DNA of 64,000 bases from NCBI GenBank assembly GCA_965226195.1, contig OZ245333.1, positions 2,344,275-2,408,274 on the forward strand. Reading direction: 5' to 3'. The DNA is from Oligoflexales bacterium (GTDB lineage: Bacteria; Bdellovibrionota_B; Oligoflexia; Oligoflexales; JAPPIL01). The notes below the pieces were generated by a model that saw only the letters and a program-made list of their open reading frames with translations, made no database searches and had not been told where the DNA came from. Every line of letters starts with the position of its first letter. Position 1 is the stretch's first letter. Position numbers and translations under genes: made by a program. Positions 12,256-50,631 of the stretch are shown in pieces.

Positions 12256-13422
12256 CTAATCAATGACGATAGAGTCTCTGGATGGCTTAGGCAAAACACT
12301 CATATATCCAAGTTCGATGAAAGCTTCGATCACTTGTTGTTCGCCTAGCTGTGTAGCAAGAGACATGATATCCTCTCCATCTTCATTGGTGATGGCAAAG
12401 TTTGCCCCCGCCTCAGCTAGAATTTTAATCATCTCACCGTCTCCGTTACGAACTGCATAGAATAATCCCGTTTCTTTGGCAAAAAAATTTTGTGCATCGA
12501 TGTCTGCTCCAGCATTTTGCAAAATTTCTATCACTTGCCTGTAGTTATCGCTGTCAGTGATATGGTCGCCAAAGCCCGTTATATTGCTAAACGACGAATG
12601 ACCATCAACCGCAAGCAGTATCGGTGTAGTACCGAGGACTTCACTTCTTGCATTGACATCCGCCCCTTTCTCAACCATAGCCGATACCATTCTTACTTTT
12701 CCCATTGCAGAAGCCATTATCAACGCTGTATGACCCGCATCATAACCGCCATAGGTAGCATGAACATTTGCCTCAGCTCGCAGTAGTTTCTCACTTATGC
12801 TGTCTTTGCCACTTCGCAAGCTCCACATCAGGGCACTCCAGTCATCGTTGTGAGCATCACTGTTGGCATTGGCATTAACATCGGCACCATTTGCAATCAG
12901 CCAATTAACTGCAACATATTTATTCCTCCGCGATGCCTCAATCAATGGTGTGTAGTTAAACTTGTTTCTAGCGTCGATGTTAGCTTTGTTGTGCAGCAGG
13001 ACTGCCATTGCTGCAACGTGCCCATGCGCTGCGGCAACAATTATTGGTGATGCTTTCCGATACCCGCTTTTTATTTCAACATCAGCATCATTGTCAAGCA
13101 GCCACTGCATTATTTTGACCTTGTTGTGCTTTGCCGCAAGGTGCAGCATGGCATAGCCGTAGTGCTTATCTATCGCTTTGTTGATCCCAAAGCCAGTGTG
13201 CTCCAGCAGAAGAGCAAGCCCGCGTGTATCATCTCTTTGCAAGACACTCATAAACGGTGCGGGAACTTTAGCGAACAACGACGTTGCCATCAGACAGCTG
13301 ACTACAGAGCCACCAAAAGCATACATAACAGCCGCCTCGCAGGCATTTTGAATGCGATACATCTCGTTATCAGTGTGGGCAACCACTCCCACCGCTGCAA
13401 TGATTACTACAAGGCGTAGCAT
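12256..13422 (-). CDS. Secreted/membrane-anchored ankyrin-repeat protein
   Basis: 388 aa. Clear ANK repeats (GYAMLHLAAKHNKVKIMQWLLDNDADVE; SPIIVAAAHGHVAAMAVLLHNKANIDA; YTPLIEASRRNKYVAVNWLIANGADVNA; TALIMASAMGKVRMVSAMVEKGADVNA). Hydrophobic N-terminus MLRLVVIIAAVGVVAHT. Confidence 0.85.
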   Translation of the reverse strand: MLRLVVIIAAVGVVAHTDNEMYRIQNACEAAVMYAFGGSVVSCLMATSLFAKVPAPFMSVLQRDDTRGLALLLEHTGFGINKAIDKHYGYAMLHLAAKHNKVKIMQWLLDNDADVEIKSGYRKASPIIVAAAHGHVAAMAVLLHNKANIDARNKFNYTPLIEASRRNKYVAVNWLIANGADVNANANSDAHNDDWSALMWSLRSGKDSISEKLLRAEANVHATYGGYDAGHTALIMASAMGKVRMVSAMVEKGADVNARSEVLGTTPILLAVDGHSSFSNITGFGDHITDSDNYRQVIEILQNAGADIDAQNFFAKETGLFYAVRNGDGEMIKILAEAGANFAITNEDGEDIMSLATQLGEQQVIEAFIELGYMSVLPKPSRDSIVID

Positions 13423-19805: not shown

Positions 19806-19951
19806 AGTGCACCCTGAACGAAATATAAAATTACAAAATATCAAATAGTTAAAATCAAACTCTAGGCACAGAGAATGGGAAAAACGGGTGGGGTTTGGTA
19901 TGATTAATGATGGCATCAGGAAGGTACAAAATTAATCGGTGGAGATGGGCT

Positions 19952-21766
19952 ATGATAACGAGGTGTTGGTCTTTTTTTGCATTATTTATCATTTTGTTGA
20001 TGTCTGGAGGGTGTAGCAAACACGAAGCAGAGCCGGTTGTTATTGATAGCATCACCACTGGTGGTGGGGTGTGTTCATTACTTTGCGACCCCGTGGAGGT
20101 GTCGCAAGCCTTTGTTTCAGAGTGGAAGGTTGATGCTGGCGATACTATTTTTCTACCCTTGCTGGAAAAAACAGCCGACATGGAAGATAGAGATAAACCT
20201 TATCCTCACACAATAACTCTCCCCGCGGGTGTAAAGAGAGTTAATTACAAATATGATTTTACCGTTGACTGGGGCGACGGTTCAACATCGAAAATCACTG
20301 CTTTTGATGACCCTGATAACAAGCATACCTACCAAAAGGCTGGTACCTATACCGTCCAGATCACAGGTGTGATGGAAGCTATGCGTGGCCACTTACACGA
20401 TGATGAGATAGATATCTCCAATAAAATGATCGCTGTTTCCGATCTCGGTGATGTTGGTTGGAAAGCTTTGTTCTATACCTTCTCCGAATCCTTCAACCTC
20501 AATGCTGTTGCTGGCGGTGATACCTCAGAGGTCGAGGTTATGGCTGGGGTGTTCTATGAAGCTACCCTTCTCAAGCCTGATATTAGCAGTTGGGACACCT
20601 CAAAGGTGGTCAGCATGACGGAGCTTTTTTCTAGGGCTTACTCGGCCAACCCTGATGTCAGCAAGTGGGATACCTCTAATGTCACCGACATGGCTGGTAT
20701 GTTCAGGAACGCAATCTCAGCCGACCCCGATGTTAGCAGGTGGAACACCACCAGTGTTACCGATATGAGCAGCATGTTTGCAACTGCAATATCGGCCAAT
20801 CCCGATGTCAGTAAGTGGGATACTGCTAATGTCACTGATATGAGTGGTATGTTCATGTTGTCCGAGTCGGCCAATCCCGATGTCAGTAAGTGGGATACCG
20901 CCAACGTTACACACATGAGTGGTATGTTCATGTACGCAAGTTCTGCTAACCCTGATGTTAGCAAGTGGAATACTGCCAATGTCACCGACATGTGGGGCAT
21001 GTTCGGGTATGCAATTTCAGCCGATCCCGACGTTAGCAAGTGGAACACCTCCAAAATCAACTATATGTCTAGGATGTTTGAGGGAGCGGTTTCTGCCAAT
21101 CCCGATGTCAGTAAATGGGATATCGCTAACGTTACACACATGAGCGGTATGTTCAAGCAGGCAAAGAAAGCTCAGCCGGATATGTCCAACTGGAGTTTTG
21201 CAAAAGTTGAAAGCATGGATGAGATGTTTGCAGGTCATACGCTAAATCCTGCCAACTATGCAAATTTTCTGCAACGCCTCAGAGCTACGGCAACTACTAC
21301 TGAGAAGATAACCCTCGATGCCGGAAAGTCAGATACAGACAACAGCGATGCTATCGCTGCCAAGGCCTATCTCACAGGTGCAGCACCGCAAGGGAAAGGC
21401 TGGGTTATACATGATAACGATAACCTTGCTCCTTCTATCTGGGAAATAAAAATGGATGTGCTAATACGAGAATCTTCAGAGGGGGTGTTTGGTGTCACTG
21501 TGAAAGTAGAGGATGCTTGGGGTAATACGCCAGTCGGAAATGTAAAGGTAGCAGTTGCTCTTGATGGTGGTGATTTTTTGCAAGGCACTACGAGTATTGA
21601 TACCAATAGTGGTATCGCAGTGTTTAGTAATTTAAGACCAAAGTTGCCAGCTAGTATTTCCTTATCTGCGCCTGTAAAAATACCATGGAAGCTAGAGGTA
21701 TCAGCAACTCTTCCTGATGATAGTCGAATAAACTCCACTGCTGCAGTCTTGTTAACGTTTAAGTGA
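19952..21766 (+). CDS. BspA/DUF285-type repeat surface lipoprotein with C-terminal Ig-like region
   Basis: Start placed at MITRCWSFFALFIILLMSGGC (lipobox). Nine repeats of about 25 residues of the type NPDVSKWDTSNVTDMSGMF(x)A(x)SA. The C-terminal beta-rich segment (VFGVTVKVEDAWGNTPVGNVKVAVALDGG) is Big-like. Confidence 0.8.
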   Translation: MITRCWSFFALFIILLMSGGCSKHEAEPVVIDSITTGGGVCSLLCDPVEVSQAFVSEWKVDAGDTIFLPLLEKTADMEDRDKPYPHTITLPAGVKRVNYKYDFTVDWGDGSTSKITAFDDPDNKHTYQKAGTYTVQITGVMEAMRGHLHDDEIDISNKMIAVSDLGDVGWKALFYTFSESFNLNAVAGGDTSEVEVMAGVFYEATLLKPDISSWDTSKVVSMTELFSRAYSANPDVSKWDTSNVTDMAGMFRNAISADPDVSRWNTTSVTDMSSMFATAISANPDVSKWDTANVTDMSGMFMLSESANPDVSKWDTANVTHMSGMFMYASSANPDVSKWNTANVTDMWGMFGYAISADPDVSKWNTSKINYMSRMFEGAVSANPDVSKWDIANVTHMSGMFKQAKKAQPDMSNWSFAKVESMDEMFAGHTLNPANYANFLQRLRATATTTEKITLDAGKSDTDNSDAIAAKAYLTGAAPQGKGWVIHDNDNLAPSIWEIKMDVLIRESSEGVFGVTVKVEDAWGNTPVGNVKVAVALDGGDFLQGTTSIDTNSGIAVFSNLRPKLPASISLSAPVKIPWKLEVSATLPDDSRINSTAAVLLTFK

Positions 21767-35654: not shown

Positions 35655-36629
35655 ATGGCTAGGAAGAAAGGGGCGATGCAGCGCAGGCGTGTGAGTGGGC
35701 ATCCGCATGATGATATTTTTCAAAAAATCTACAAAAATAAGGAATTTGTCAGGGAAATTGTTGCAATAGCTTTTGATGCTGAGGATCTGAAGAAGCTTGA
35801 CTTGTCCAGTGTGAGAATCAAGGAAAGTGCGGCGAGGAACATTGCTGGCAAAAGTCGCAGGCCTGACCTCGTTATTTCTGTTGAACTAAAAGGAAAAGCA
35901 GATGAACCACCTGTTACCATCTGTATAGTTTTTGAGTTCAAGGCGCATAGAGCACATGACGTTATCTTACAGATCAAGGAATATCACACTGAGCTGTGTC
36001 GTCGCACGGGTGGCATCGTCATTCCTATCGTTTTGCTGTGTTGCGAGGACGAGAGTTTCGACCCACCAAGTGACTACAACAGCTGGGTATTCAGAAACAG
36101 AGGGATACCTGCAGCAGTGCAGTCGCTCTCACATCTCAATCCTAATTTTTTCTGTAAAATCATAAACTTACACAAATTACCCGAAAGTGTTCTGCGGAGA
36201 GCCAAGTCTACCGCTGTTGTTATCGAGGCTATCCGCCGTTTTTGGCGGGCAACCGAGGACGATGTAGTATTATTGTTGGAAAAAGCAAGGCAAATTCCAG
36301 CTGTACATAAAGGTATTGTGATGATTCCATTAATAGATTATTATGAACATACCGATAAGGGATTTGGAAGGAAGGCGTTTGACCGAATTGAGCGAGAACA
36401 CTGGCCAAACCTACACGAAAAGGAGAGGCTTATGCCAACAATAGAGTTTAGCCTCGACAAGGCGGAGAAGCGTGGCATCGAACAGGGGCTTACTGAAGGC
36501 ATCGAGCAGAAGCAGCGGGATGCTGCCGAGCGAATGTTGGCACGGGGCATGCCTGATGACCAGATTTGTGATGTTCTACAGCTCAGTGCAAAAGAGCTAG
36601 CCGATATCAAGCGTGAGTTGAAGCGCTGA
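35655..36629 (+). CDS. Rpn-family recombination-promoting nuclease / putative transposase (YhgA-like, PD-(D/E)xK)
   Basis: 324 aa. N-terminal HPHDDIFQKIYKNKEFVREIV. The nuclease core is RRPDLVISV...ICIVFEFKAH (D...ExK). The C-terminal helical module is EQGLTEGIEQKQRDAAERMLARGMPDDQICDVLQLS. Confidence 0.75.
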   Translation: MARKKGAMQRRRVSGHPHDDIFQKIYKNKEFVREIVAIAFDAEDLKKLDLSSVRIKESAARNIAGKSRRPDLVISVELKGKADEPPVTICIVFEFKAHRAHDVILQIKEYHTELCRRTGGIVIPIVLLCCEDESFDPPSDYNSWVFRNRGIPAAVQSLSHLNPNFFCKIINLHKLPESVLRRAKSTAVVIEAIRRFWRATEDDVVLLLEKARQIPAVHKGIVMIPLIDYYEHTDKGFGRKAFDRIEREHWPNLHEKERLMPTIEFSLDKAEKRGIEQGLTEGIEQKQRDAAERMLARGMPDDQICDVLQLSAKELADIKRELKR

Positions 36630-36900
36630 CTTTGCCGCCAGCAAGAGATTTTAGCTCTACAGCGCTACTACGAGTTGCAAACCTGCCAGCTTGTCATTCA
36701 GTAAAGGCATGACAGAGAACGGCAGCTTAGTTTGTTTGGCAGTGATTCCAGTGATACGGTAGTGAGCAGAGCTTGGAGTCACTATTTCTGCAAAAGATGT
36801 GGCATTTGCCATGACTAAAACAATAGACCCTTATAGGAGTGTGTGACCAGCCATCACGTGCCTCCGGCAAAGCAAAGTAAGCCTGTGATTAAATCTTTCA

Positions 36901-37200
36901 CTATATATCTCCTTCTCCTTCTTTTAGGCACAGATAGATGACTGCCCTAATTTGTTGTTGATTGAGGTAAACGTGAATTGTATGCGTTGATAGATTCTCA
37001 ACGTAGATATTCACTTTTCCATTGTCCACTACCCGTCTTAACCGCTCGCATACCTCCCTATTGCTGTTGGCGAACAGGTATTGTGGGTGGCGGGGGAAGA
37101 CAGAGCCAGCTACCCAGTCATGGATCTGCCGTGGCCCCGGCATGGCGAAGTAGGCGATCCAGATGAAGCTAAACATCACGATTACACGCTTGGTACGCAT
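36901..37200 (-). CDS. Small secreted partner protein of pilin cassette A
   Basis: 99 aa. Its ATG shares one nucleotide with the pilin TGA (TGATG), implying translational coupling. Signal anchor VIVMFSFIWIAYFAMPGP. Homologous to 38517-38819 (YFA.PGP, LFANS, two conserved Cys). Confidence 0.65.
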   Translation of the reverse strand: MRTKRVIVMFSFIWIAYFAMPGPRQIHDWVAGSVFPRHPQYLFANSNREVCERLRRVVDNGKVNIYVENLSTHTIHVYLNQQQIRAVIYLCLKEGEGDI

Positions 37201-37853
37201 CAGTTATCGCAACCCTCGACGATATCCCAGTAGTTGTCGAGATTTCTTCCATGATCCATGCACCAAGCGTCTCCTTCGCCCCCGGCGGGTTTTGTTACGT
37301 CGGTAGCACCGGCTACACCAGCTGGATCTACGCAAGGGTTAACTGCGGAGGTAGCTACGCCATCCGCTGGTTGTCGAGCATCTCTGCTAACAAGTGTGCC
37401 ATTGCAGCCGGGAAAGATGCGTTTGCCCGCTGTTATGTCGGAAGGAGCATAAGAAATTGCTAGAAAATCATTTTCCCGCCCGCCAGCCATCCAATAGCTG
37501 TAGCGTGCTTTGCCGCAGTTAGCTAAGCGAAAACCAAGCTTGTTTACCCCGCAACTGCCAGCTCCAACGCCCTTGTGATAACCATCCGACGATGACAAGT
37601 CCTTCATGTCAGAGCCGCCCCACTTAACTTTATCTCCGTCATAATAGCTTTCATATTCAATAGAAAAAGATTCTTGCAAAGTAAAGATAACCCCCAGATT
37701 AGTCTTCGCCTCCGCCTGTCTTGCGCGCGCCCGGAAGATGTTAAAGCGAGGCACTGCGACAGTTGCCAAAATGCCGAGGATGGCCACCACGACCATCAGT
37801 TCTAGCAGCGAGAAGCCAAGCGGCTTTCTCATCCAATTTTTATAAGCACTCAT
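37200..37853 (-). CDS. Type IV pilin-like protein, cassette A
   Basis: Start placed at ATG 37853, because GGTGGAGGA lies inside the longer listed ORF. Class III signal MSAYKNWMRKPLG/FSLLELMVVVAILGILA (G-1, F+1, E+5). Six Cys in the C-terminal domain. Confidence 0.85.
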   Translation of the reverse strand: MSAYKNWMRKPLGFSLLELMVVVAILGILATVAVPRFNIFRARARQAEAKTNLGVIFTLQESFSIEYESYYDGDKVKWGGSDMKDLSSSDGYHKGVGAGSCGVNKLGFRLANCGKARYSYWMAGGRENDFLAISYAPSDITAGKRIFPGCNGTLVSRDARQPADGVATSAVNPCVDPAGVAGATDVTKPAGGEGDAWCMDHGRNLDNYWDIVEGCDN

Positions 37854-38030
37854 TTTATCCTCCACCATTTATGAAGATTTACATAAGTCACTAACTTTAG
37901 TTCTCTATAAAACAGTTCGGCGTTTTTTTTTTGCCATTAGCTTTTTTTTAAGTACTAAAAATCTCAACAGGTTATGGCTTGTTTTTATCTGATCCTATAG
38001 CGGCATAAGGGTAGGCAACTGGTGTGGTTT

Positions 38031-38065
38031 CTTCCCCGTACTGTTGATAGGAACACACGGGGAAG
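38031..38065. repeat. Conserved hairpin element upstream of pilin cassette A (CTTCCCCGT-15 nt-ACGGGGAAG)
   Basis: 9-bp stem, 15-17 nt loop. The same element with a 10-bp stem lies at 39637-39671. A half copy with an inverted loop lies at 58176-58197. Confidence 0.7.
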
Positions 38066-38146
38066 GCAGGTGTGTAGTGCTGACTACTGGAAAAGGTGGA
38101 GATTTATGGCATGAAGGCAGGCAGGAGCACCTATACTACCAGCTAT

Positions 38147-38255
38147 CTACCACCTAACAATGCCACCGGGAAAGCTTTCAAGCTCAAGTGCTTCCAGCAG
38201 CTCTGCGTGCAAATTTGGTTTGATAAGGTCTTGACACTCGTGCCACAAGAGGCGG
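38147..38255 (-). pseudogene. 3'-terminal remnant of a paralogue of the 257-aa gene (40204-40977)
   Basis: The reverse strand reads ...ECQDLIKPNLHAELLEALELESFPGGIVRW*. The intact gene reads ...HEYQDLIKPSLQTELLEALELDSLPGGILGN. No upstream coding continuation. Confidence 0.65.
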
Positions 38256-38516
38256 TCATCCTTAGTCCATCAGGACTTTTTTTAGTGGATAACCGTTTCG
38301 GGACGCAGAAAAACACGTCATAATTGACGTGATCAACAACTGCAAATCCCACGGAGGTTTATTTTATTCACATTTTGTTTACAATATGTAAGCTTTTTGT
38401 GCCCTAATTAAACTAGGGAGTGGAAGGTTGAATCGTGGCTGGAAAAATTTCAACAAAAAAAGACCGAGCAACTAAGATTAATGCTTTCATGACTTCTCCT
38501 TGTTTAATGTTTTTAT

Positions 38517-38819
38517 TTATTTTGGTTTTAATCCGTCTGCTGTTAACGATCTACAGACGCGAATCAAGTTGTCTGTTTGATGTGGTGTGAAACTAATCTG
38601 CAATTCATACTGATCTGAATTATCGATAAATATACGATTACCGATATTGTCATCGACATAGCGCAACAGTATGCGACGACAAGCCTGCCATTCAGAATTT
38701 GCGAACAGGCTGTGCGCAGGTGACGCGCCGTTGAACAACAACTCCGGGCCAGGACAGGCAAAGTAGGTAAGCCATGCAAGGCCTACCCACAGAGACTTGC
38801 GTTGCAGCGCATCATTCAC
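38517..38819 (-). CDS. Small secreted partner protein of pilin cassette B
   Basis: Start placed at GTG 38819, overlapping the pilin stop (GTGAATGA), which gives about 100 aa. LWVGLAWLTYFACPGPE...SLFANSEWQACRRIL is homologous to 36901-37200. The listed 133-aa ORF start lies inside the pilin gene. Confidence 0.6.
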   Translation of the reverse strand: MNDALQRKSLWVGLAWLTYFACPGPELLFNGASPAHSLFANSEWQACRRILLRYVDDNIGNRIFIDNSDQYELQISFTPHQTDNLIRVCRSLTADGLKPK

Positions 38820-39459
38820 AGAATTCCGTAATGTCCCGGTAGTTGAACAGATTGCGAGCTTCCTCCATACACCACGCGTCGCCATCAGGAAAAGAATCAG
38901 CCCCGGAAGTATAACCATTTTGTGTTAGATCGCACTTGCCTTGAATACTGGTTGCGCCAGGTGTATCTGGGGCTTTCGGGTCTGGGGGAGTGTTTCCATT
39001 GCAGCCGGGAAAAACCCTCTTGTCACCCACCACATCAGAAGGGCCATAAGCAATAGAGAGAAACCCGTTCTCAGTTGCGCTAGATATGTAGTAACCATAG
39101 CGTGCTTTTACGCAGTTAGCGAGTCGAAATCCGAGTTTATTGTTGGCATCAGCGGGGAGACATTTGCTAGAACCACCACTGAAATAACCGTCCCTTTCAG
39201 CGGCAGAGTTCATATCTGTGCCGCCCCACTTTGTCCCGTCGCCATCGTAATAGTTTTCGTGCTCGATCGAGAAGCTTTCCTGCAATGTAAAAATCATGCC
39301 AAGATTAGTCTTCGCCTCCGCCTGTCTTGCGCGCGCCCGGAAGATGTTAAAGCGAGGCACTGCCACAGTTGCAAGTACGCCAAGGATGGCGACCACGACC
39401 ATCAGTTCTAGCAGCGAGAAGCCAAGCGGCTTTCTCATCCAATTTTTATGAGCACTCAT
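38812..39459 (-). CDS. Type IV pilin-like protein, cassette B
   Basis: MSAHKNWMRKPLG/FSLLELMVVVAILGVLA. The first 80 or so residues are almost identical to cassette A. The C-terminal domain is divergent but keeps the six Cys. Confidence 0.85.
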   Translation of the reverse strand: MSAHKNWMRKPLGFSLLELMVVVAILGVLATVAVPRFNIFRARARQAEAKTNLGMIFTLQESFSIEHENYYDGDGTKWGGTDMNSAAERDGYFSGGSSKCLPADANNKLGFRLANCVKARYGYYISSATENGFLSIAYGPSDVVGDKRVFPGCNGNTPPDPKAPDTPGATSIQGKCDLTQNGYTSGADSFPDGDAWCMEEARNLFNYRDITEFCE

Positions 39460-39636
39460 TTTATCCTCCACCATTTATGAAGATTTACATAAGTCACTAA
39501 CTTTAGTTCTCTATAAAACAGTTCGGCGTTTTTTTTTTGCCATTAGCTTTTTTTTAAGTACTAAAAATCTCAACAGGTTATGGCTTGCTTTTATCTGATC
39601 CTATAGCGGCATAAGGGTAGGCAACTGGTGTGGTTT

Positions 39637-39671
39637 CTTCCCCGTGCTGTTGATAGGAACACACGGGGAAG
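39637..39671. repeat. Conserved hairpin element upstream of pilin cassette B (CTTCCCCGTG-15 nt-CACGGGGAAG)
   Basis: Perfect 10-bp stem inside the near-identical ~235-bp leader shared with cassette A. Confidence 0.7.
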
Positions 39672-39735
39672 GCAGGTGTGTAGTGCTGACTACTTGACGG
39701 CAGGAAGGCAGGCAGGAGCACCTATTACCCGCTAT

Positions 39736-39853
39736 CTATCGCCTAACAATGCCACCGGGAAAGCTTTCGAGCTCAAGTGCTTCCAGCAGCTCTGCTCGCA
39801 AATTTTGCTTGATAAGGTCTTGATACTCGTGCCACAAGAGGCATCCCCTTGCT
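39736..39853 (-). pseudogene. Second 3'-terminal remnant of a paralogue of the 257-aa gene
   Basis: The reverse strand reads ARGCLLWHEYQDLIKQNLRAELLEALELESFPGGIVRR*. About 35 codons are alignable with the C-terminus of 40204-40977. Confidence 0.65.
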
Positions 39854-39902
39854 TTGTGCCACCTTCTGTGGTAAGGTGACGGTGGTCGACAACGAGGACA
39901 TA

Positions 39903-40187
39903 ATGAAAAAGATACTTCTGCTTACCATCATCCTTCTCTTCTGCAGTGCCTCCAAATTTCCGTCGTCACACTCCATCGCCGAGCGAATAGCTAGAAAGGT
40001 AATATTGGGTCTCGATCCTAAAAGGATTCTCCGTTATAAAATGGAAGTGATATTTGACCTTTACCCCCTAAACAGACCGACGAATGCACTGGAATCAGAT
40101 GATATCCCTGCAAACGTGCGGAAGATATGGCGGAAGGCAAAAGTTGACTACCTGAAGGAGATGGTAGAAGATTTGCCGTTAGATTAG
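39903..40187 (+). CDS. Small secreted protein, unknown function
   Basis: Start at ATG 39903 (SD GAGGA, 4-nt spacer). Signal peptide MKKILLLTIILLFCSAS. 94 aa. Confidence 0.5.
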   Translation: MKKILLLTIILLFCSASKFPSSHSIAERIARKVILGLDPKRILRYKMEVIFDLYPLNRPTNALESDDIPANVRKIWRKAKVDYLKEMVEDLPLD

Positions 40188-40203
40188 GGCTGCCTCGCCT
40201 CAC

Positions 40204-40977
40204 TCATTCGTTGCTCCCAATGCTCTGCGCAGTAATCCCGCTATTTATATTACCCAAAATTCCGCCGGGGAGGCTATCAAGCTCAAGTGCTTCCAGCAGC
40301 TCTGTTTGCAAACTAGGCTTGATAAGGTCTTGATACTCGTGCAGCAAAAGGCGAGTGGCTTCAATAAGATCGTGTTCAGAAATATCTTCAGCTGAGTACT
40401 GGGCGAACAACATTCCTTGTTTTGTTGCCATTGCCGTTGCGTGCACAAACTTTTCTGCCTGTTCAAAGTCAATTTCCAGTATAAACTGTGTCTTTAGTAT
40501 AGTATCTACATAGAGCTCGTCAAAATGCTCCTCGTCGTTGCGCAAAGAACTAACAATATCTGCATGTATATCAAATACAGCATAGATCTTGGCATTAAGT
40601 AAATTATTATTCAGGTCGGCAAAAATTTCCTCATACTCTTCGTTTTGTTCAGCTTCCATTAGCGCAGAGGCAGTCATAGCTTTATATGCAAAAACACCAT
40701 TATCTTGGCTTTCTAGTTCCGCATCTATACCATCACTTGCTTCTGGATCAGCTAAAGACATGATATTAGCAGCACCGAATATCTTCTCAAGAGCACCTGC
40801 ATCAAGGCCAGCCTTCTCCCCCGCAACCTTGAAGTGCTGATAAAGCACAGGAGCAAGGCTATTATACAGATAGAGCTGCAACGACAACTTACCCTCTCTC
40901 AATAACTTAAGTTGCATTTGTGCAGCAAACACGGGCGCAGACGCTGACATTGCCAACAAAAAAACTAACAATTTCAT
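40204..40977 (-). CDS. Secreted acidic helical protein, unknown function (parent of the two 3' remnants)
   Basis: 257 aa. Signal peptide MKLLVFLLAMSASAPVFAA. Its own TTGACA-17-TAAAAC promoter lies upstream. Confidence 0.6.
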   Translation of the reverse strand: MKLLVFLLAMSASAPVFAAQMQLKLLREGKLSLQLYLYNSLAPVLYQHFKVAGEKAGLDAGALEKIFGAANIMSLADPEASDGIDAELESQDNGVFAYKAMTASALMEAEQNEEYEEIFADLNNNLLNAKIYAVFDIHADIVSSLRNDEEHFDELYVDTILKTQFILEIDFEQAEKFVHATAMATKQGMLFAQYSAEDISEHDLIEATRLLLHEYQDLIKPSLQTELLEALELDSLPGGILGNINSGITAQSIGSNE

Positions 40978-41009
40978 TTAATTACCTCATAAAAGCAAAC
41001 AAAGTATAG

Positions 41010-41038
41010 TTTTATTACATTTATTTACAATTGTCAAG
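41010..41038 (-). promoter_or_regulatory. Sigma70-like promoter of the 257-aa gene
   Basis: On the minus strand: TTGACA (41033-41038), a 17-nt spacer, then TAAAAC (41010-41015). Two TATAGTTTTAT direct repeats are nearby. Confidence 0.35.
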
Positions 41039-41101
41039 CTATAGTTTTATAACTATGTAGACTTACAATAGAATTAGGGACAAACCACCCTTGCCATGAC
41101 T

Positions 41102-41887
41102 TTAGCCAAACCGCCCGGTAACATAGTCTTCCGTAGCACGAATGCGGGGTGCGGTAAACATGATGTCGGTCTTATTGTATTCAACCAGCTTGCCTTCGTA
41201 GAAGAAAGCGGCGCAATCAGAAATGCGTGCTGCCTGTTGCATGTTGTGGGTGACGATGACAATCGTATACTGTTCACGCAGAGTGGTGATTAGTTCCTCA
41301 ATTTTTTTAGTCGAGCGGGGGTCAAGGGCTGAACAAGGCTCGTCCATCAAAATAATTTCCGGCTCCATAGCGATTGCCCTTGCAATGCAGAGACGCTGAT
41401 GTTGTCCGCCCGACAAGGCAAGGGCTGATTGTTGCAGTTTGTCCTTGACCTCATCCCATAATGCCGCTTTGCGCAGCGAAGTCTCCACCGCCGCGTCGAT
41501 TTCGCTGCGCCGCCGCACACCTAGAATACGCAAGCCATAGGCAACATTTTCGTAGATCGATTTGGGGAACGGCGTTGGTTTTTGAAACACCATGCCCACC
41601 CGGCGGCGTAGCGAGATAACATCAAGTGTTTCTTGATTAATTTCAAGTTCATTAAGCTTAATACTGCCCGTCACCCGTGCCTGTGGCACGTTGTCGTTCA
41701 TGCGATTGAGACAGCGCAAAAACGTTGATTTGCCACATCCCGACGGCCCGATTAAGGCAGTTACCTGATGGCGCGGCATGGCAAAAGAAATAGCGAACAA
41801 GACCTGATTTTGACTGTAAAAAAAGTCTAAATCTTTGACATGCAAAATCCAATCGTCAAGTTCCATAACGTAAGCGTCTTTTTTCAT
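41102..41887 (-). CDS. pstB: Phosphate ABC transporter ATP-binding protein
   Basis: [40 protein letters not shown]-terminal [10 protein letters not shown]. Start placed at [12 protein letters not shown] (41887), 1 nt after the pstA stop. Confidence 0.9.
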
Positions 41888-41888
41888 G

Positions 41889-43436
41889 CTAAAACCCACT
41901 GCTGACACTGTATTTTTTGCGCAAATAACTTCGCAACCACACCGAACTGCCAGTCATCAATAAGACAATTACTACTAACAGAAGGGTAGAAGCATACACC
42001 AACGGCTTGGCAGCCTCAATGTTTGGTGATTGACAAGAAATATCGTAAATATGAAAGCCAAGATGCATAAACTTACGATCGAGATGCAAAAGAGGAAACG
42101 TGCCATCGATCGGCAAACTCGGTGCAAGCTTCACTACACCTGTAATCATCAGCGGCGCAACCTCACCCGCAGCACGTGCCATCGCTAAAATAAAGCCCGT
42201 TAAAATACCCGGTGATGCCGCCGGCAACAACACCCGCCACAGTGTCTGCAAGCGTGTTGCCCCAAGTGCCAGCGACGAGTCACGAAATGCACTCGGAATA
42301 GCACGCAGTGCCTCTTCCACCGCCACAATCACCACTGGCATAGTGAGCAGACCGAGACTGAGGCTTGCCCATAGCAGACCTCCCGTGCCAAAGGTTGGCT
42401 CTGGCAACGTCTTGGCAAAAAACAATTCATCAATGCCACTACCCAAACCATAAATAAAAAAGCCCAATCCAAAAATACCAAACACAATCGATGGTATGCC
42501 GGCAAGATTATTCACAGCAACCCGCACCAATTGCAAAAAAAATCCGTGTCCAGCATAAACACCGAGATATATTCCCGCCAGCACCCCAAAGGGAAAAGAC
42601 GTAATGCTCATAATAAAAACTAACAATACCGTGCCAAAAGCTGCAGGGAACACACCCCCTTCCATGTTTGCCTCACGTGGCTCGTCGAACAACAACTCAC
42701 CAACTTTTTTCGCATAATGCACAGTTTTAGCAAAAATACTCATACTGCTAGGCTGATAGAAGCGAATTATGTCAGAAAGACGAATGCTTTTTTCCTTACC
42801 ATCTGTGGTAATAAACAAAGCACGATAAGTGTCGAGTTCCTGCTCCAATGTCGCCACCTGCTTGTTTTGTGCCTCAATCAGATATTGGTAACGACTAATG
42901 CTCTCCTGATTGACAGGCGTATTTTTTTCTTCAGCCCACAGTTGATCGTTATACGTACCCACCAACGTGTGTATTTGATCAATACGCTCAGACAATTCTT
43001 CTATTTCGGGATGCAGCTCTTCGGTAACAAAATAGTTCTTGATGTGAGATGGGTTATTTTCAGCAAGATACCCGATAAAATTACCGTATTCAACTCGCTC
43101 AATGACATAGATGTCAGGTGGATAAGAAGTTTCATCCACTGTGTCGGCAGTTATCCACTTGAAATCATGACCGCTGACATCGCGATTCGCAGTCTTGAGT
43201 TGCAAGCGATACAACTTGTCGTTACGCCATTCTTTTTTGATAATCTCGCCAGCAATAACATCACCGCTAGTAGTCACAATACGAACAACATCACTTGGCC
43301 ACAAAGCACTCAAGCCATTGATAACAATGATGGCGAAGAAGCCCACTGTCATCAGCATTACCAACGTCATACCTGCAGCAGTTACCCATACCCAAGGTTC
43401 GCCGGCACCCCAGAATTTTTTTTTACAAATTGCCAT
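41889..43436 (-). CDS. pstA: Phosphate ABC transporter permease, long form
   Basis: 515 aa. N-terminal TM, then a large extracytoplasmic insert, then the PstA core ([40 protein letters not shown]). Confidence 0.85.
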
Positions 43437-45615
43437 AGCGCTTTCTCAAACCAGTGCGCACCAATTCCGCCACGGTGTTGAACATAAAAGTTAACACGAA
43501 CAACACCACCGCACACAAGAACAGCGTGCGATACAGCGTGCTGTTGACAGGTGCTTCGGGCACTTCTACGGCAATGTTTGCTGCTAGTGTGCGCATGCCG
43601 TTGAACGGACTAAAGTCAATGATGGGTGTGTTGCCTGTCGCCATCAGCACAATCATCGTTTCGCCCACTGCACGTCCAAAACCAATGATTGCCGCGGCAG
43701 CAATGCCCGGACTTGCCGACGGCAACACCACACGCCAAATTGTCTGCCAGCGGCTTGCACCAAGTGCCAACGATGATAACGGCAAGGCTTTGGGAATGTT
43801 GTCGAGACTGTCTTCTGAAATAGAAAAGATTATCGGAATTACGGCAAAGCCAAGCCCAAAAGCTATGATAATACTGTTGCGTTGATCGTATTGCATTCCT
43901 ACTACATCGTAAAGCCACGTGCTGAAATCGCCACGAAAAAAATAATTTTCCACTGGAGGAGTCAAGTAATAAGCACACAGTGCCGCTACTGCGACGACTG
44001 GCACAAGAATCATAAACTCACGCTGTCGTTCAAAACGTTCTACAAAAGTAAAATTACGCAGCTGTGCCCACAAAAATAAAAACAGCAAAAAAACTAGCGG
44101 TAAGGTTATGATACTCAATAAAAAAGTGACGAGAAAATTTTGCAAAAAAGGCGCAAGCCATAACACAGCAAGAAATCCAATTACCACAGAAGGCAACGAA
44201 GCGAGCACCTCTATAGCAGGCTTGATGAAGGCTTTGAAGGCTTTGGAAGCAAACTGACTGGTGTAAACCGCGGCAGCAATCGACAGTGGCAACACTAGCA
44301 GCAGGGCATACAGAGTGCCCTTGAATGTGCCAAAAATCAGAGGCACAAGGCTTAGCTTAGGCTCGAAATCATCTGTGCCACTCGAAGACTGCCACACGTA
44401 AGCAGGCTGAACGTAGCCCTCATACCAGACGCGCTGCATCAAGGTGGCAAAGCTGATTTCTGCGTGCGGTGCGTCTATACCCCACAGAGCAGCGGTTTTG
44501 AAGGCATTAACTGTTACCAACGCATTGTCACGCGGAGACAAGGCAAGCGTGTGCCGCAGTCCTTCTGTTGCAGGAATATAACGCACCGTTGCCGCATTGG
44601 TGAGAACGTGCAGTGCCAGCCCGCCACGAGCATCGAGGGCGGCAAAAAATTTGCTGCGTCCTGCTTTGCTGAATGCTTGCACCGCTGCTGGTAGCGAGGC
44701 GAAAGTTTTGAACCGCACCAGCTTATTGCCCTTTGCCGCTTGCCATGCAGACAGCTGTCCTTCTGTGTCACCGACAATGAAGGAGTTGTCGCCATAGACG
44801 AACTTAAGTGCCGTCACCGCGGTAGCACTAACTTTATTACTAGTCATGGTGCTGCCGCCGTCTGTGTTTATCTTGATGAAGGTGACTTCACCCTGGGCGT
44901 TGCCTGCTACTACTTTTGTAGCATCAGCACTAACATCGAGTGCCGTCACCGCGGCGAGACGGAAAGATAGGTCGAGTTGCTGCTGCTGCTGTTCGTCGTC
45001 GCTGACACTGAAAATATCGTCGGCTTCCTCCTCTTGCACATCTTCTGCAGGAGGAGGGGAGGTGATGGTAAGTCGATCGTTATCAACTGCGAACAGAATG
45101 TTTTTCTTTCTAATGGCTGCAAATTGTGGTGAGCGGAGAAGCTGCCGTTGATACAAGAGCACAGGCGTGGCATTAACATCAATTGAACTGATCACACCGT
45201 CGCTCCACACTAGAGTGTGTTGTGCCGCGCGCTCGCTTTCCACTGCCGTGATGGTGGCATTGCTGGCAGGACGCAAGCGATAAGTGCTCTGCACGCTGTG
45301 CCCGTCGATGTTATGCACCGTGACACGACCATGTGTTTCGATGCTGTATATCGTCTGGAGGTGCTCGTCACTACCAGCGGCAAGCACTGCAGACGAGGTG
45401 GAGAGGCGCTGTTCAGCTAACTGCTGCACACCCGCGGAATAGAACAGCGGCAATGCCACTGTGGTTATCAGCAACAAAATGCCAACGGTAGCGGCAATCA
45501 CCAATAAACCACCGCCCTTGATGACCCACGTGGCACACGCGTCGGCAAGGTGCGCAATACGTGTGCGGCGACCAGTATAGTTAGCAACTGTTCCCATACC
45601 GCAAGTATCTTTCAA
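43423..45615 (-). CDS. pstC: Phosphate ABC transporter permease, long form with ~400-aa N-terminal extracytoplasmic domain
   Basis: 730 aa. C-terminal PstC core (SLDNIPKALPLSSLALGASRWQTIWRVVLPSASPGIAAA). The N-terminal domain has repeated strand motifs (VVAGNAQGEVTFIKI, FIVGDTEGQLSAWQ, AALDARGGLALHVL) suggesting a beta-propeller. Overlaps pstA by 14 nt. Confidence 0.85.
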   Translation of the reverse strand: MKDTCGMGTVANYTGRRTRIAHLADACATWVIKGGGLLVIAATVGILLLITTVALPLFYSAGVQQLAEQRLSTSSAVLAAGSDEHLQTIYSIETHGRVTVHNIDGHSVQSTYRLRPASNATITAVESERAAQHTLVWSDGVISSIDVNATPVLLYQRQLLRSPQFAAIRKKNILFAVDNDRLTITSPPPAEDVQEEEADDIFSVSDDEQQQQQLDLSFRLAAVTALDVSADATKVVAGNAQGEVTFIKINTDGGSTMTSNKVSATAVTALKFVYGDNSFIVGDTEGQLSAWQAAKGNKLVRFKTFASLPAAVQAFSKAGRSKFFAALDARGGLALHVLTNAATVRYIPATEGLRHTLALSPRDNALVTVNAFKTAALWGIDAPHAEISFATLMQRVWYEGYVQPAYVWQSSSGTDDFEPKLSLVPLIFGTFKGTLYALLLVLPLSIAAAVYTSQFASKAFKAFIKPAIEVLASLPSVVIGFLAVLWLAPFLQNFLVTFLLSIITLPLVFLLFLFLWAQLRNFTFVERFERQREFMILVPVVAVAALCAYYLTPPVENYFFRGDFSTWLYDVVGMQYDQRNSIIIAFGLGFAVIPIIFSISEDSLDNIPKALPLSSLALGASRWQTIWRVVLPSASPGIAAAAIIGFGRAVGETMIVLMATGNTPIIDFSPFNGMRTLAANIAVEVPEAPVNSTLYRTLFLCAVVLFVLTFMFNTVAELVRTGLRKRYGNL

Positions 45616-49810: not shown

Positions 49811-50566
49811 TCAGTAATAAACCATTTCCAAAGCCTCGCTTGAGTATTGAGCGATGAAGCGGTCGAGGGTTGTGGCTTGTTGGTTGGATAGCGAGGTAAA
49901 TTTTACCCCGATGCCCTTATCTCTTTGTGTTGCTACGCGGACGAATTCACCTTCAATCACTAGTGGCTGGTGTGCTTTATCGAGAAAAATGTTCATGCTG
50001 ACGATTGTGCCTTTCTCGAAGTTAATTCTTGTTGCCAGTAAAACTCCGCTGCGAGAGATGTTGGCAATGCCACACTGGTAGCGCGTATTTTCCCAGACAA
50101 ATTCAACCCGACCAGCAATTTTTACCCGCTCATCCACACGTGACTGCTGTTTGAGCAACGTCCTGATTTTTTTGATGAAAATTTTGCGTGGCAGCGGCTG
50201 AAGCACGAACAAGTCAGCACCAGCTTCCAGCACACGCTTCTCTGGCACACCTTCCACCTGCACGCTGGTTGCGACCAGCAAGATGTCTGCAGTCGAAGAA
50301 CGGCGACGAAACTGATGGATGAGATGGAGGGCATCGACAACGTTTGTGTCAAGGTTGATGATGATGAGGCTGATGTTCTCTTTGATCGCTAAAGCTGCAA
50401 TAATTTCAACAGCTTCTTGCTTATCGGCAGCATGCAGCAATGCCTGTGCCGATGCATAGCTGTGCAGTGCTTCGGCTCGAAAGCCCATCTCGCGAAAGCC
50501 TTTTAAATCAAGGTGTTGTGCAACATCACGCCCGTCGATATTCAAGATTCCGATCTGCTTACTCAT
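49811..50566 (-). CDS. Receiver-like domain + PilZ domain protein (c-di-GMP binding predicted)
   Basis: 251 aa. SD GGGAGGGG. The N-terminal CheY-like fold has LIIINLD but lacks the usual conserved Lys (LQP instead of KP). PilZ motifs are RVDER (RxxxR) and NISRSG (D/NxSxxG). Confidence 0.7.
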   Translation of the reverse strand: MSKQIGILNIDGRDVAQHLDLKGFREMGFRAEALHSYASAQALLHAADKQEAVEIIAALAIKENISLIIINLDTNVVDALHLIHQFRRRSSTADILLVATSVQVEGVPEKRVLEAGADLFVLQPLPRKIFIKKIRTLLKQQSRVDERVKIAGRVEFVWENTRYQCGIANISRSGVLLATRINFEKGTIVSMNIFLDKAHQPLVIEGEFVRVATQRDKGIGVKFTSLSNQQATTLDRFIAQYSSEALEMVYY

Positions 50567-50631
50567 AGCTAGCCCCTCCCAGTCAACATTCGGCAGTTGA
50601 CGGAATTGCTTTAGTTTGCCAAAAAACTATC

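What the first reader, a model, noticed from the sequence alone, without database searches (positions are those of the whole stretch)
36901..40977. Tandemly duplicated pilin + partner cassette: near-identical leader and N-terminal half, divergent C-terminal half, each preceded by a remnant of the same upstream gene
Two units of about 1.6 kb lie at 36901-38255 and 38517-39853, with an offset of 1606 bp between the pilin starts. Each unit contains the following.
- A 3' remnant of a paralogue of the 257-aa gene at 40204-40977.
- A conserved hairpin.
- A leader of about 235 bp that differs between the two copies at only two positions that I can see.
- A type IV pilin-like gene.
- A ~100-aa secreted partner whose start overlaps the pilin stop (TGATG, GTGAATGA).

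The pilins differ at about five positions in the first 80 or so residues (signal, alpha1 helix, LGxIFTLQESFSIE). After YYDGD they diverge strongly, while keeping six Cys and the blocks KLGFRLANC and DAWCM. The partners are also diverged but keep YFA.PGP, LFANS and two Cys.

Conserved 5' halves with variable 3' halves fit gene conversion, or diversifying selection on an exposed pilin head together with a co-evolving partner. No pilus assembly genes are nearby. The shared leader carries T8 and T10 homopolymer tracts of identical length in both copies. A 25-codon ORF with a strong SD (38413-38490) lies between the units and may be another remnant.
Basis: partly seen in the sequence, partly recalled or inferred. 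Interest (0 to 1): 0.7.

Follow-up and report, generated by a model that had tools for sequence, protein, structure and literature searches.

The report
Tandem swappable pilin genes with partners
Two neighbouring genes for the main subunit of a bacterial surface filament (type IV pilus), each followed by a small helper gene, keep near-identical control regions while their exposed middle parts are exchanged by recombination; this is a new variant of a familiar way for bacteria to vary their surface.

Summary
Two units lie 1606 bp apart on the minus strand. Each has a remnant of the 257-aa gene, a hairpin, a ~235-bp leader with 2 differences, a type IV pilin and an overlapping ~100-aa partner.

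The interpretation needs correcting in three places.
- DNA-level identity runs only from the remnant to about pilin codon 52 (dS = 0 in codons 1-22). Residues 53-75 are conserved by purifying selection, with synonymous sites near saturation.
- Comparison with syntenic loci from related uncultured Oligoflexales shows concerted evolution of the 5' module within each genome. It also shows exchange of the pilin head between flanks that are 95-100% identical.
- The partner does not co-evolve with the head. Head and partner identities are uncorrelated (Spearman 0.13), and one partner type pairs with three heads.

The partner is a real gene (dN/dS about 0.2-0.4). It follows the pilin in 14 of 14 units first extracted, and in 16 of the 18 intact pilins examined overall. 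It belongs to a tiny clade-restricted family unrelated in size and topology to TfpY/FimB.

The pilins form a multicopy family (3-6 or more per genome) closest to Myxococcus PilA.

All units share a sigma-28-like promoter, CTAAT-N-GCCGAA, whose spacer is the A tract. The tract is 10 in 12 of 17 promoters and otherwise 9, 11 or 12. Phase variation through this tract is possible but untested.

The parts
40204..40977 (-). 257-aa secreted acidic protein ('p257'). Its 3' end is the source sequence of the remnants. It is conserved upstream of the pilin locus in four related genomes.
   Evidence: ORF. No Pfam or NCBIfam family. Orthologues at 79-96% identity in L008, L010 and L016. The family has only 4 clusters.
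39849..40187 (+). Small signal-peptide protein on the opposite strand (94 aa from M19, about 39903). It lies between p257 and unit B and is not part of the duplication.
   Evidence: 81-93% conserved in L008, L010 and L016. A weak hit to Bd0108 (E = 0.018) is judged to be noise.
39745..39847 (-). Unit B: remnant of the 3' end of a p257-like gene. This marks the start of the duplicated segment.
   Evidence: Repeat family D2. tblastn to p257 residues 210-241, 75% identity. Alignment.
39637..39672 (-). Unit B: conserved hairpin with a 10-bp GC-rich stem, a 15-nt loop and no U tail.
   Evidence: Fold -25.6 kcal/mol, z = -4.2. The loop is inverted in both L008 copies.
39522..39555 (-). Unit B promoter-like block: A8 tract (39548-39555), CTAAT, spacer GGC-A10-C (A10 = 39529-39538), GCCGAA.
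   Evidence: The flanking motifs are invariant in 17 homologous promoters from at least 6 genomes.
38812..39459 (-). Pilin B: type IV prepilin of 215 aa (13-aa leader, cleavage at G|FSLLE, six Cys).
   Evidence: Pfam N_methyl and TIGR02532 above cut-off. Equals P0004. 62% identical to pilin A.
38517..38819 (-). Partner B: 100 aa, GTG start inside GTGAATGA overlapping the pilin stop. N-terminal hydrophobic helix, then a Cys-containing domain. This is the divergent 'B class'.
   Evidence: Equals P0131. B-class relatives P0133 and P0138 each lie directly after a pilin.
38413..38490 (-). 25-codon ORF with an AAGGAG Shine-Dalgarno in the inter-unit spacer. Status unknown.
   Evidence: No homologue in any fetched locus. 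Followed by a terminator-like hairpin at 38314-38331.
38156..38256 (-). Unit A: remnant of the 3' end of a p257-like gene.
   Evidence: Family D2. tblastn at 76% identity to p257 residues 209-241.
38031..38066 (-). Unit A: conserved hairpin.
   Evidence: Fold -23.7 kcal/mol, z = -4.0.
37916..37949 (-). Unit A promoter-like block: A8 tract (37942-37949), CTAAT, spacer GGC-A10-C (A10 = 37923-37932), GCCGAA.
37200..37853 (-). Pilin A: type IV prepilin of 217 aa.
   Evidence: Equals P0001. Best solved relative is M. xanthus PilA 8tj2, E = 1.5e-15 over the N-terminal 88 residues. AF2 model pLDDT 78, pTM 0.72; the top Foldseek hits are all type IV pilins.
36901..37200 (-). Partner A: 99 aa, with its ATG overlapping the pilin stop (TGATG). 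This is the 'A class'.
   Evidence: Ten homologues at 54-97% identity, with no Pfam domain. dN/dS about 0.2-0.4. In the AF2 model only the N-terminal helix is confident.
35655..36629 (+). Rpn/YhgA-like PD-(D/E)XK nuclease or 'transposase' gene, convergent with unit A. A link to the recombination is possible but unproven.
   Evidence: Pfam Transposase_31 and TIGR01784. PHROG transposase, E = 3.5e-12. The same family lies next to another pilin copy in L013.

Best explanation
**What it is**

The locus holds two complete, separately promoted genes for alternative type IV major pilins. They are large and resemble Myxococcus PilA. Each is translationally coupled to a small membrane-anchored accessory protein. 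They belong to a multicopy pilin family of uncultured Oligoflexales (Bdellovibrionota).

**Three modules in each unit**
1. A 5' module: p257 remnant, hairpin, promoter with the A-tract spacer, 5' UTR, signal peptide and alpha-1 N-terminus up to about codon 52.
2. The pilin head, roughly residues 55-205. It is hypervariable between the Cys residues at about 150 and 198.
3. A 3' module: the pilin C-terminal tail plus the partner gene.

**Shown**
- The 5' module is homogenised between the paralogues of one genome by gene conversion.
- Heads are exchanged by recombination. In the clearest case (window unit A against L010 unit 2) both crossovers lie in the conserved 5' and 3' modules. As a result, heads and partners reassort.
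- The partner is under purifying selection and is physically tied to the pilin.

**Inferred**
- The two genes give the cell alternative pilus surfaces. This could vary adhesion specificity, or allow escape from phage or host recognition.
- The partner is a generic assembly or stability factor rather than a head-specific one. It would act in the inner membrane or periplasm on the conserved part of the pilin or on the machinery.
- Transcription starts at a sigma-28-like promoter, CTAAT-N15-CCGAAC.
- Slippage of the A-tract spacer could tune or switch individual copies.
For: **Pilin identity**
- N_methyl and TIGR02532 score above cut-off. The best NCBIfam match is typeIV_PilA_Myxo over the N-terminal 60 residues.
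- The best solved relative is 8tj2. The AF2 model has a long alpha-1 helix plus a beta-sheet, and its top fold hits are pilins.

**Multicopy family**
- About 100 pilins at 45-71% identity. By contig-length fingerprint, there are 3 on the window's 2.95-Mb contig and 6 on the 2.84-Mb contig.
- Six pilin-partner loci lie in the MAG with accessions OY282434-OY282439.

**Partner linkage**
- In 14 of 14 units first extracted, the partner start lies within -8 to +17 nt of the pilin stop. Two more linked pairs were found later in L014 and L016.
- Partner dN/dS is about 0.2-0.4.

**Conversion of the 5' module**
- dS = 0 in codons 1-22, and near saturation in most segments after codon 46.
- The paralogues within a genome share their leader-peptide variant and their hairpin-loop orientation.

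**Head exchange**
- Window unit A against L010 unit 2: 98-100% identity from 38083 to about 37810, 50-60% from 37683 to 37250, then mostly 95-100% again from 37209 to 36620, with short dips to 75-90%.
- Window against L008: 95.8% identity over 6 kb, ending at 39209 inside pilin B. Beyond that point the head is a different type.
- The 3' two-thirds of the partner in L008 unit 1 is 100% identical to the partner in unit 2.

**Reassortment**
- Head and partner identities are uncorrelated.

**Promoter**
- CTAAT and GCCGA[AC] are invariant in 17 A-tract promoters. Both motifs are kept, with an unrelated 16-nt spacer, in two pilin paralogues that lack a partner.
- The Bdellovibrio FliA consensus is TTAAG-N16-CCGATA (PMC3627812).
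- Tract lengths are 9, 10, 11 and 12 between otherwise identical flanks.
Against: - Assembly into a pilus and the choice of sigma factor are therefore inferred.
- The match to the sigma-28 consensus is partial: 3 of 5 bases at -35 and 4 of 6 at -10.
- Ten A's occur in 12 of 17 promoters, so the tract looks constrained rather than freely variable.
- Two of the deviant lengths come from a contig with 3x coverage (L008).
- The partner model is poor (pLDDT 65) and has no fold match, so its role is assigned by position and analogy only.
- No expression data exist. One copy could be silent in practice.
Confidence: 0.7

Rival explanations
1. A recent tandem duplication was followed by fast diversifying point mutation of the head and partner, with no recombination between diverged copies.
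For: The tandem arrangement and the 1606-bp register. The related genome L016 has a single unit at the same site, so a duplication did occur at some point.
Against: Synonymous sites are near saturation in most of the head, while dS is 0 in the leader and codons 1-22. The same head or partner types recur in other combinations in other genomes. The partners are only about 30% identical although the adjacent leader is 99% identical.
Confidence: 0.04
2. A Neisseria-type antigenic variation system, with one expressed pilin locus and one silent donor cassette that is copied into it.
For: Mosaic conserved and variable structure, plus evidence of conversion tracts.
Against: Both copies have the full promoter block, a Shine-Dalgarno, a start codon, a signal peptide and a partner. 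No promoterless pilin fragment exists in the window. Dispersed copies in other genomes are also complete.
Confidence: 0.07
3. The partner is a head-specific chaperone or assembly factor that co-evolves with its cognate pilin.
For: The window's two partners are as diverged as the two heads (about 30% against about 54%). TfpX, TfpY and TfpZ of Pseudomonas were originally proposed to be pilin-specific (PMC11841053).
Against: There is no correlation between head and partner identity across 14 pairs. Partners at 93-97% identity sit behind heads at 60% identity (L010), and a partner at 84% sits behind a third head type (L008 unit 1). A 78%-identical head sits in front of partners at 39% identity. 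Within OY282434 the partners are 70-100% alike whatever the head.
Confidence: 0.1
4. The proteins are pseudopilins or subunits of another type IV filament (type II secretion, competence or a Tad-like system), not major pilins of a motility or adhesion pilus.
For: Weak N-terminal hits to GspG, GspH and ComG models. No pil machinery in the window.
Against: The mature length of about 204 aa is far larger than GspG. The best matches are major pilins (M. xanthus PilA, Geobacter, Thermus PilA4). High copy number and a hypervariable surface loop are typical of exposed major subunits.
Confidence: 0.08

Closest known systems
Pseudomonas aeruginosa pilin-accessory gene cassettes (pilin groups I-V with tfpO, tfpW/tfpX, tfpY, tfpZ) and Dichelobacter nodosus fimA-fimB
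   Same: A major pilin gene is immediately followed by a dedicated accessory gene. Pilin alleles are highly divergent in the head and conserved in alpha-1. Cassettes are exchanged between strains at a fixed chromosomal site. TfpY can cross-complement heterologous pilins (PMC11841053), which parallels the non-specific pairing seen here.
   Different: TfpY-like proteins are 235-245 aa with three transmembrane helices. The partner here is about 100 aa with one N-terminal hydrophobic helix and has no family hit. The Pseudomonas cassette has a terminator between pilin and accessory gene, whereas here the two genes overlap (TGATG, GTGAATGA). Pseudomonas has one pilA per genome, whereas here there are 3-6 or more complete units per genome and two in tandem.
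Myxococcus xanthus PilA (large type IVa major pilin, PDB 8tj2)
   Same: Best sequence relative among solved structures (E = 1.5e-15). Best NCBIfam model over the N-terminal 60 residues. Similar mature size (about 204 against 208 aa), several disulfides and a leader longer than usual (from the alignment, and from my own knowledge of PilA).
   Different: Similarity is confined to the first ~90 residues. The NCBIfam score is 67 bits against a cut-off of 400, so this is not an equivalog. The heads are unrelated in sequence. No partner gene is described for M. xanthus pilA (my knowledge, not tested).
Neisseria pilE/pilS gene-conversion antigenic variation
   Same: Conserved 5' pilin segment, variable head and non-reciprocal transfer between paralogous copies within one genome.
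   Different: All copies here are complete and carry a promoter. No silent cassettes were seen. Here it is the conserved 5' part that is demonstrably homogenised within a genome, and head swaps are seen between genomes.
Promoter-spacer homopolymer phase variation (Bordetella fim2/fim3 poly-C; Neisseria opc/porA; Mycoplasma vlp poly-A). Recalled from established literature, not read here.
   Same: A family of alternative surface-filament subunit genes, each with its own promoter. Each promoter contains a homopolymer between the putative -35 and -10 elements. Tract length differs between copies (9-12).
   Different: No evidence of within-population length variation or of an effect on expression. 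The tract is 10 in 12 of 17 copies. The promoter type is sigma-28-like rather than sigma-70 with an activator.

Membership tests
Type IV pilin / prepilin (class III signal peptide proteins) | Leader ending in Gly, then F/M at +1, Glu at +5 and a hydrophobic alpha-1 N-terminus | tested here: met
   MRKPLG|FSLLELMVVVAILG. Pfam N_methyl E = 1e-7 (31 bits against a cut-off of 21). TIGR02532 at 29 bits against 16. G13, F14 and E18 are invariant in 59 relatives.
Type IV pilin / prepilin (class III signal peptide proteins) | Lollipop fold: long alpha-1 helix packed on an antiparallel beta-sheet, with C-terminal disulfide(s) | tested here: met
   AF2 model pLDDT 78, pTM 0.72, helix at 16-67 plus 4-5 strands. 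The eight best Foldseek PDB hits are all type IV pilins, although the E-values are weak (9.6e-3 at best). Six Cys in 53 of 59 members.
Type IV pilin / prepilin (class III signal peptide proteins) | Prepilin peptidase and assembly machinery (PilB/C/D/M-Q) in the same genome | not testable with these tools
   None found among the larger ORFs of the 64-kb window that were scanned. The rest of the genome could not be retrieved.
NCBIfam NF041775 typeIV_PilA_Myxo (equivalog of M. xanthus PilA) | Full-length match above the curated cut-off (400 bits) | tested here: not met
   67-68 bits, covering residues 17-77 only.
TfpY/TfpX/TfpZ/FimB pilin accessory proteins | [quoted passage not shown] | tested here: met
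   14 of 14 units first extracted, plus two further pairs in L014 and L016.
TfpY/TfpX/TfpZ/FimB pilin accessory proteins | About 235-245 aa, with three N-terminal transmembrane helices and a periplasmic mixed beta-sheet domain (PMC11841053) | tested here: not met
   Partners are 92-118 aa. There is one N-terminal hydrophobic helix at residues 2-19. No Pfam, NCBIfam, PHROG or PADLOC hit.
TfpY/TfpX/TfpZ/FimB pilin accessory proteins | Sequence homology to TfpY or FimB | not tested
   No TfpY or FimB sequence was compared directly. The profile search of 1.84 billion representatives returned only 12 proteins, almost all about 100 aa, so no link to a 240-aa family emerged.
Neisseria-type pilE/pilS system | Promoterless, 5'-truncated silent cassettes that donate to one expression locus | tested here: not met
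   Both window copies and all 14 units first extracted are complete with a promoter.
Promoter-spacer homopolymer phase variation | Homopolymer located between the -35 and -10 elements | tested here: inconclusive
   The tract lies between the conserved CTAAT and GCCGAA motifs. These motifs persist with a non-A spacer in L013 and L015. The transcription start has not been mapped.
Promoter-spacer homopolymer phase variation | Tract length varies within a population and switches expression | not testable with these tools
   Only between-copy variation is seen: A9 in 3 promoters, A10 in 12, A11 in 1 and A12 in 1. Two of the variants come from a 3x contig.

The most novel reading that the evidence does not exclude
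Host-associated Oligoflexales may run a previously undescribed pilus-variation system with three features.
1. A family of complete major-pilin genes whose heads are shuffled between fixed 5' and 3' anchor modules.
2. Individual control of each gene by slippage of a poly-A spacer in a FliA-type promoter. A10 or A11 would be on, and other lengths off.
3. Dependence of each gene on a new, universal ~100-aa pilin accessory protein that replaces the TfpY/FimB class.
Probability: 0.2. Interest if true: 0.7.

Novelty: new variant of a known kind. Interest (0 to 1): 0.5.

Why it matters
Pilin-plus-accessory cassettes and recombination-driven pilin diversity are known mainly from a few Pseudomonadota pathogens. 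This locus shows the same logic in uncultured Bdellovibrionota, with several differences.
- A new, very small accessory protein family.
- Several complete units per genome.
- Unusually clear natural 'experiments': syntenic loci with about 96% identical flanks carrying five different heads.

These loci map where recombination occurs. They also show that the accessory protein is not head-specific, which bears on the open question of what such accessory proteins do. If the poly-A spacer proves to be phase-variable, this would be, to my knowledge, a rare case of promoter-slippage control of type IV major pilins.

Tried and rejected
- **Retrieving the rest of the window's genome.** Exact-protein look-up of P0001 and P0012 was not on record. 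The third pilin copy (P0012) and the pilus machinery therefore could not be examined.
- **JGI metagenome scan.** A scan with the promoter pattern found nothing.
- **Rfam.** An E-value scan of 36500-41200 gave only one chance-level hit. The hairpin and 5' UTR are not a known RNA family, and the 5' UTR has no significant fold (z = -0.8).
- **Sigma-54 reading of TGGC...GC.** Rejected because the GG-to-GC spacing would be 11-14 nt in every copy instead of the canonical 10.
- **Sigma-70 scan.** No promoter was found in the leader.
- **Defence-system and phage libraries.** Nothing for the partner or p257.
- **The 25-codon ORF as a remnant.** No homologue was found.
- **An intact p257 paralogue in the same genome.** Not found.

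Full report
**1. What is in the sequence**

All genes of the finding lie on the minus strand. Reading 5' to 3' on that strand, the order is as follows.
- The 257-aa secreted protein p257 (40977-40204).
- A small signal-peptide ORF on the opposite strand (39849-40187).
- Unit B:
  - remnant, 39847-39745
  - hairpin, 39672-39637
  - promoter-like block, 39555-39522
  - pilin B, 39459-38812
  - partner B, 38819-38517
- A 260-bp spacer with a 25-codon ORF and a terminator-like hairpin.
- Unit A:
  - remnant, 38256-38156
  - hairpin, 38066-38031
  - promoter block, 37949-37916
  - pilin A, 37853-37200
  - partner A, 37200-36901
- A convergent Rpn/YhgA-like gene (35655-36629).

The repeat finder gives a 300-nt family at 91% identity with spacing 1606. 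It also gives a 120-nt family with three copies at 100%, 92% and 74%, the third lying inside p257. In a global alignment, identity is 84-94% in the remnant and 98-100% through the leader. It is 88-98% in roughly the first 50 codons and 26-70% afterwards. The only corrections are the likely pilin start (the second ATG, behind GGAGGA, as in database calls P0001 and P0004) and the GTG start of partner B at 38819 (= P0131).

**2. Identity of the proteins**

*Pilins*
- Both carry the prepilin cleavage and methylation motif above curated cut-offs (Pfam N_methyl, TIGR02532).
- Their best family model is the Myxococcus PilA equivalog, but only over residues 17-77 and far below cut-off (67 against 400 bits).
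- The best solved relative is the M. xanthus pilus subunit 8tj2 (E = 1.5e-15, N-terminal 88 residues).
- An AlphaFold2 model built on 59 relatives (pLDDT 78, pTM 0.72) shows the long alpha-1 helix and a beta-sheet. Residues 160-190 are of low confidence.
- The eight best Foldseek hits in the PDB are all type IV pilins, though with weak E-values.

*Partners*
- They have no hit in Pfam, NCBIfam, PHROGs or PADLOC.
- A profile search of 1.84 billion representatives found only 12 proteins.
- They have a confident N-terminal hydrophobic helix. The downstream domain is poorly modelled and has two invariant Cys. It has no fold match.
- Codon comparisons give dN/dS of roughly 0.2-0.4 at informative distances, so the ORFs are real genes.

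**3. The wider family**
- The pilin search returned about 100 relatives at 45-71% identity. Almost all come from ENA or NCBI metagenome assemblies.
- A scan of species-representative genomes with the partner profile found six loci, all in one MAG labelled 'uncultured Oligoflexales bacterium' (OY282434-OY282439). In all six a family pilin lies directly upstream.
- With further loci fetched by exact protein look-up, 14 of 14 units extracted at that stage have a partner start within -8 to +17 nt of the pilin stop.
- Four more pilins were fetched later. Two are followed by a partner (L014, L016). The other two (L013, L015) lack a partner.
- Overall, 16 of the 18 intact pilins examined have an adjacent partner.

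**4. Recent identity versus old constraint**

Nei-Gojobori estimates between the two window pilins are as follows.

| Codons | Result |
|---|---|
| 1-22 | dS = 0 |
| 23-45 | dS = 0.30 |
| 46-75 | pS = 0.95, dN = 0.11 |
| most later segments | pS about 0.8-1.0 (0.60 at codons 151-200) |

The DNA-level identity therefore ends near codon 52. Beyond that point the protein conservation of the alpha-1 helix is ordinary purifying selection. Across the family, mean column entropy is 0.37 bits at residues 14-66 and 2.76 bits at residues 151-193. So the 5'/3' contrast is real, but it has two different causes.

**5. Concerted evolution and cassette exchange**

Three loci are syntenic with the window, sharing pstC-pstA-pstB-p257-small ORF-remnant: L008, L010 and L016.
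- **L008** matches the window at 95.8% over 6 kb, up to window position 39209 inside pilin B. It then carries a different head (63-64% aa identity to either window pilin).
  - Its second unit is the orthologue of unit A (pilin 92%, partner 97%).
  - Both L008 pilins begin MITRENW, while both window pilins begin MSA[Y/H]KNW.
  - The 60-nt alignment window around the start codon is 98-100% identical within a genome but 88-90% identical between genomes.
  - The hairpin loop is reverse-complemented in both L008 copies relative to both copies of the window and of L010.
  - These are signatures of intragenomic gene conversion of the 5' module.
  - The partner of L008 unit 1 is 100% identical to that of unit 2 over its 3' two-thirds but only 78% identical at its 5' end. 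Conversion therefore also acts at the 3' end.
- **L010 unit 2** against window unit A:

| Window positions | Identity |
|---|---|
| 38083 to about 37810 | 98-100% |
| alpha-1 region | 82-85% |
| 37683-37250 | 50-60% |
| 37209-36620 (end of pilin, partner, flank) | mostly 95-100%, with short dips to 75-90% |

  This is a clean replacement of the head alone.
- **L016** has a single unit at the site, with a fifth head type and a third partner type. It already has the remnant. The remnant therefore predates the tandem duplication.
- **Between the units**, L008 and L010 carry an AbiEii/AbiEi pair that the window lacks.

**6. Heads and partners reassort**

Across the 14 pairs, head identity is about 50% for nearly every comparison. 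Partner identity instead follows the genome or clade. Examples are 70-100% within OY282434 and 82-97% for the A class in the window clade. The two measures are uncorrelated (Spearman 0.13, p = 0.23).

Striking cases:
- L010 against window A: head 60%, partner 95%.
- L009 against window B: head 78%, partner 39%.

This argues against a head-specific, co-evolving partner. It favours a generic role, as recently reported for TfpY, which can cross-complement heterologous pilins (PMC11841053).

**7. The promoter and the A tract**
- In 17 homologous promoters from at least six genomes, the block CTAAT-GGC-A(n)-C-GCCGA[AC] is invariant except for n. Tract length n is 10 in 12 promoters, 9 in three, 11 in one and 12 in one.
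- The two pilin paralogues without a partner (L013, L015) keep CTAA[AT] and G[CG]CGAAAC, separated by unrelated sequence of 16 nt. This identifies the two motifs, rather than the tract, as the conserved elements and the tract as the spacer.
- The geometry resembles the FliA consensus mapped in Bdellovibrio, TTAAG-N16-CCGATA (PMC3627812). With A10 the spacing is N15, and with A11 it is N16.
- The same motif occurs once more in the window, 23 nt upstream of a PilZ-domain gene (0.39 matches expected by chance in total).
- A sigma-54 reading fails on spacing, and no sigma-70 promoter was found in the leader.
- Whether tract slippage switches expression cannot be tested here. The predominance of A10 suggests constraint. 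Two deviant lengths come from a 3x-coverage contig. Three of the six copies in the chromosome-level OY282434 assembly deviate.

**8. Comparison with known systems**

The closest functional analogue is the pilin-accessory cassette of P. aeruginosa and D. nodosus. The partner fails the defining features of TfpY/FimB (about 240 aa, three transmembrane helices). The genes here overlap instead of being separated by a terminator.

It is not a Neisseria pilE/pilS system, because all copies are complete and carry promoters.

It is best filed as a new variant of pilin diversification by modular recombination. Its distinguishing points are a new clade-restricted accessory family, several complete units per genome and a possibly slippage-prone promoter spacer.

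**9. Limits**
- The rest of the window's genome could not be retrieved. The third pilin copy (P0012), the pilus machinery and fliA are therefore unexamined.
- No expression or population data exist.
- The function of the partner is inferred from position, topology and analogy.

Noticed in passing
window 39637-39672 and 38031-38066 (-); L008 5537-5584 and 9136-9182; L010 3407 and 9788: The 15-nt loop of the conserved hairpin is reverse-complemented in both L008 copies (CTATTGATAGGAACA) relative to both copies in the window and in L010 (TGTTCCTATCAACAG). This is a small hairpin-loop inversion that was then shared between paralogues.
   Followed up: partly
L008 7219-8915; L010 8083-9584: An AbiEii/AbiEi toxin-antitoxin pair sits between the two pilin units in two syntenic genomes. 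It is absent from the window, whose 260-bp spacer (38256-38516) matches nothing fetched.
   Followed up: partly
L010 3606-7883: The first pilin of the syntenic L010 locus is split (residues 1-100 and 174-220) by about 3.6 kb. The insert carries three further pilin-like ORFs at 27-37% identity and several unknown genes.
   Followed up: no
L008 6714-6938 and 10319-10543; L014 2548-2712: 5'-truncated partner-like remnants lie just after each intact partner in L008, and next to a 42%-identical p257-like gene in L014. They are probably footprints of earlier cassette replacements.
   Followed up: partly
window 35655-36629 (+); L013 5738-6745: An Rpn/YhgA-like (Transposase_31, recombination-promoting nuclease family) gene lies next to unit A. 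The same family lies next to another pilin copy in a different genome.
   Followed up: no
window 50589-50614 (-), upstream of 49811-50566: The only other CTAA-N14-17-GCCGAA match in the window lies 23 nt upstream of a PilZ-domain gene. This hints at a shared sigma-28-like regulon.
   Followed up: partly
window 39849-40187 (+): A small signal-peptide protein between p257 and unit B is conserved in L008, L010 and L016. It gives a weak NCBIfam hit (E = 0.018) to Bd0108, the Bdellovibrio host-interaction-locus protein. The hit is probably signal-peptide noise.
   Followed up: no
window 38413-38490 (-) and 38314-38331 (-): A 25-codon ORF with an AAGGAG Shine-Dalgarno is followed by a terminator-like hairpin (z = -4.0). 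No homologue was found in any fetched locus.
   Followed up: partly
L013 4001-4660; L015 4001-4675: Two family pilins lack a partner gene and lack the A tract, but keep the CTAA[AT]-N16-G[CG]CGAAAC motifs.
   Followed up: partly
window 12256-13422, 15089-19210, 19907-21766, 4913-5416, 43423-45615: Ankyrin-repeat proteins, a DUF285 protein and a TnpB/Cas12f-like fragment are present, as is a 730-aa PstC. Faint to weak beta-propeller family hits are on record for its L008 and L016 orthologues. The ankyrin and DUF285 content suggests a host-associated lifestyle.
   Followed up: no
L003-L006 flanks (OY282434): The flanks of the pilin units in this MAG are dense in interspersed repeats of about 150-400 bp at 65-90% identity.
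   Followed up: no
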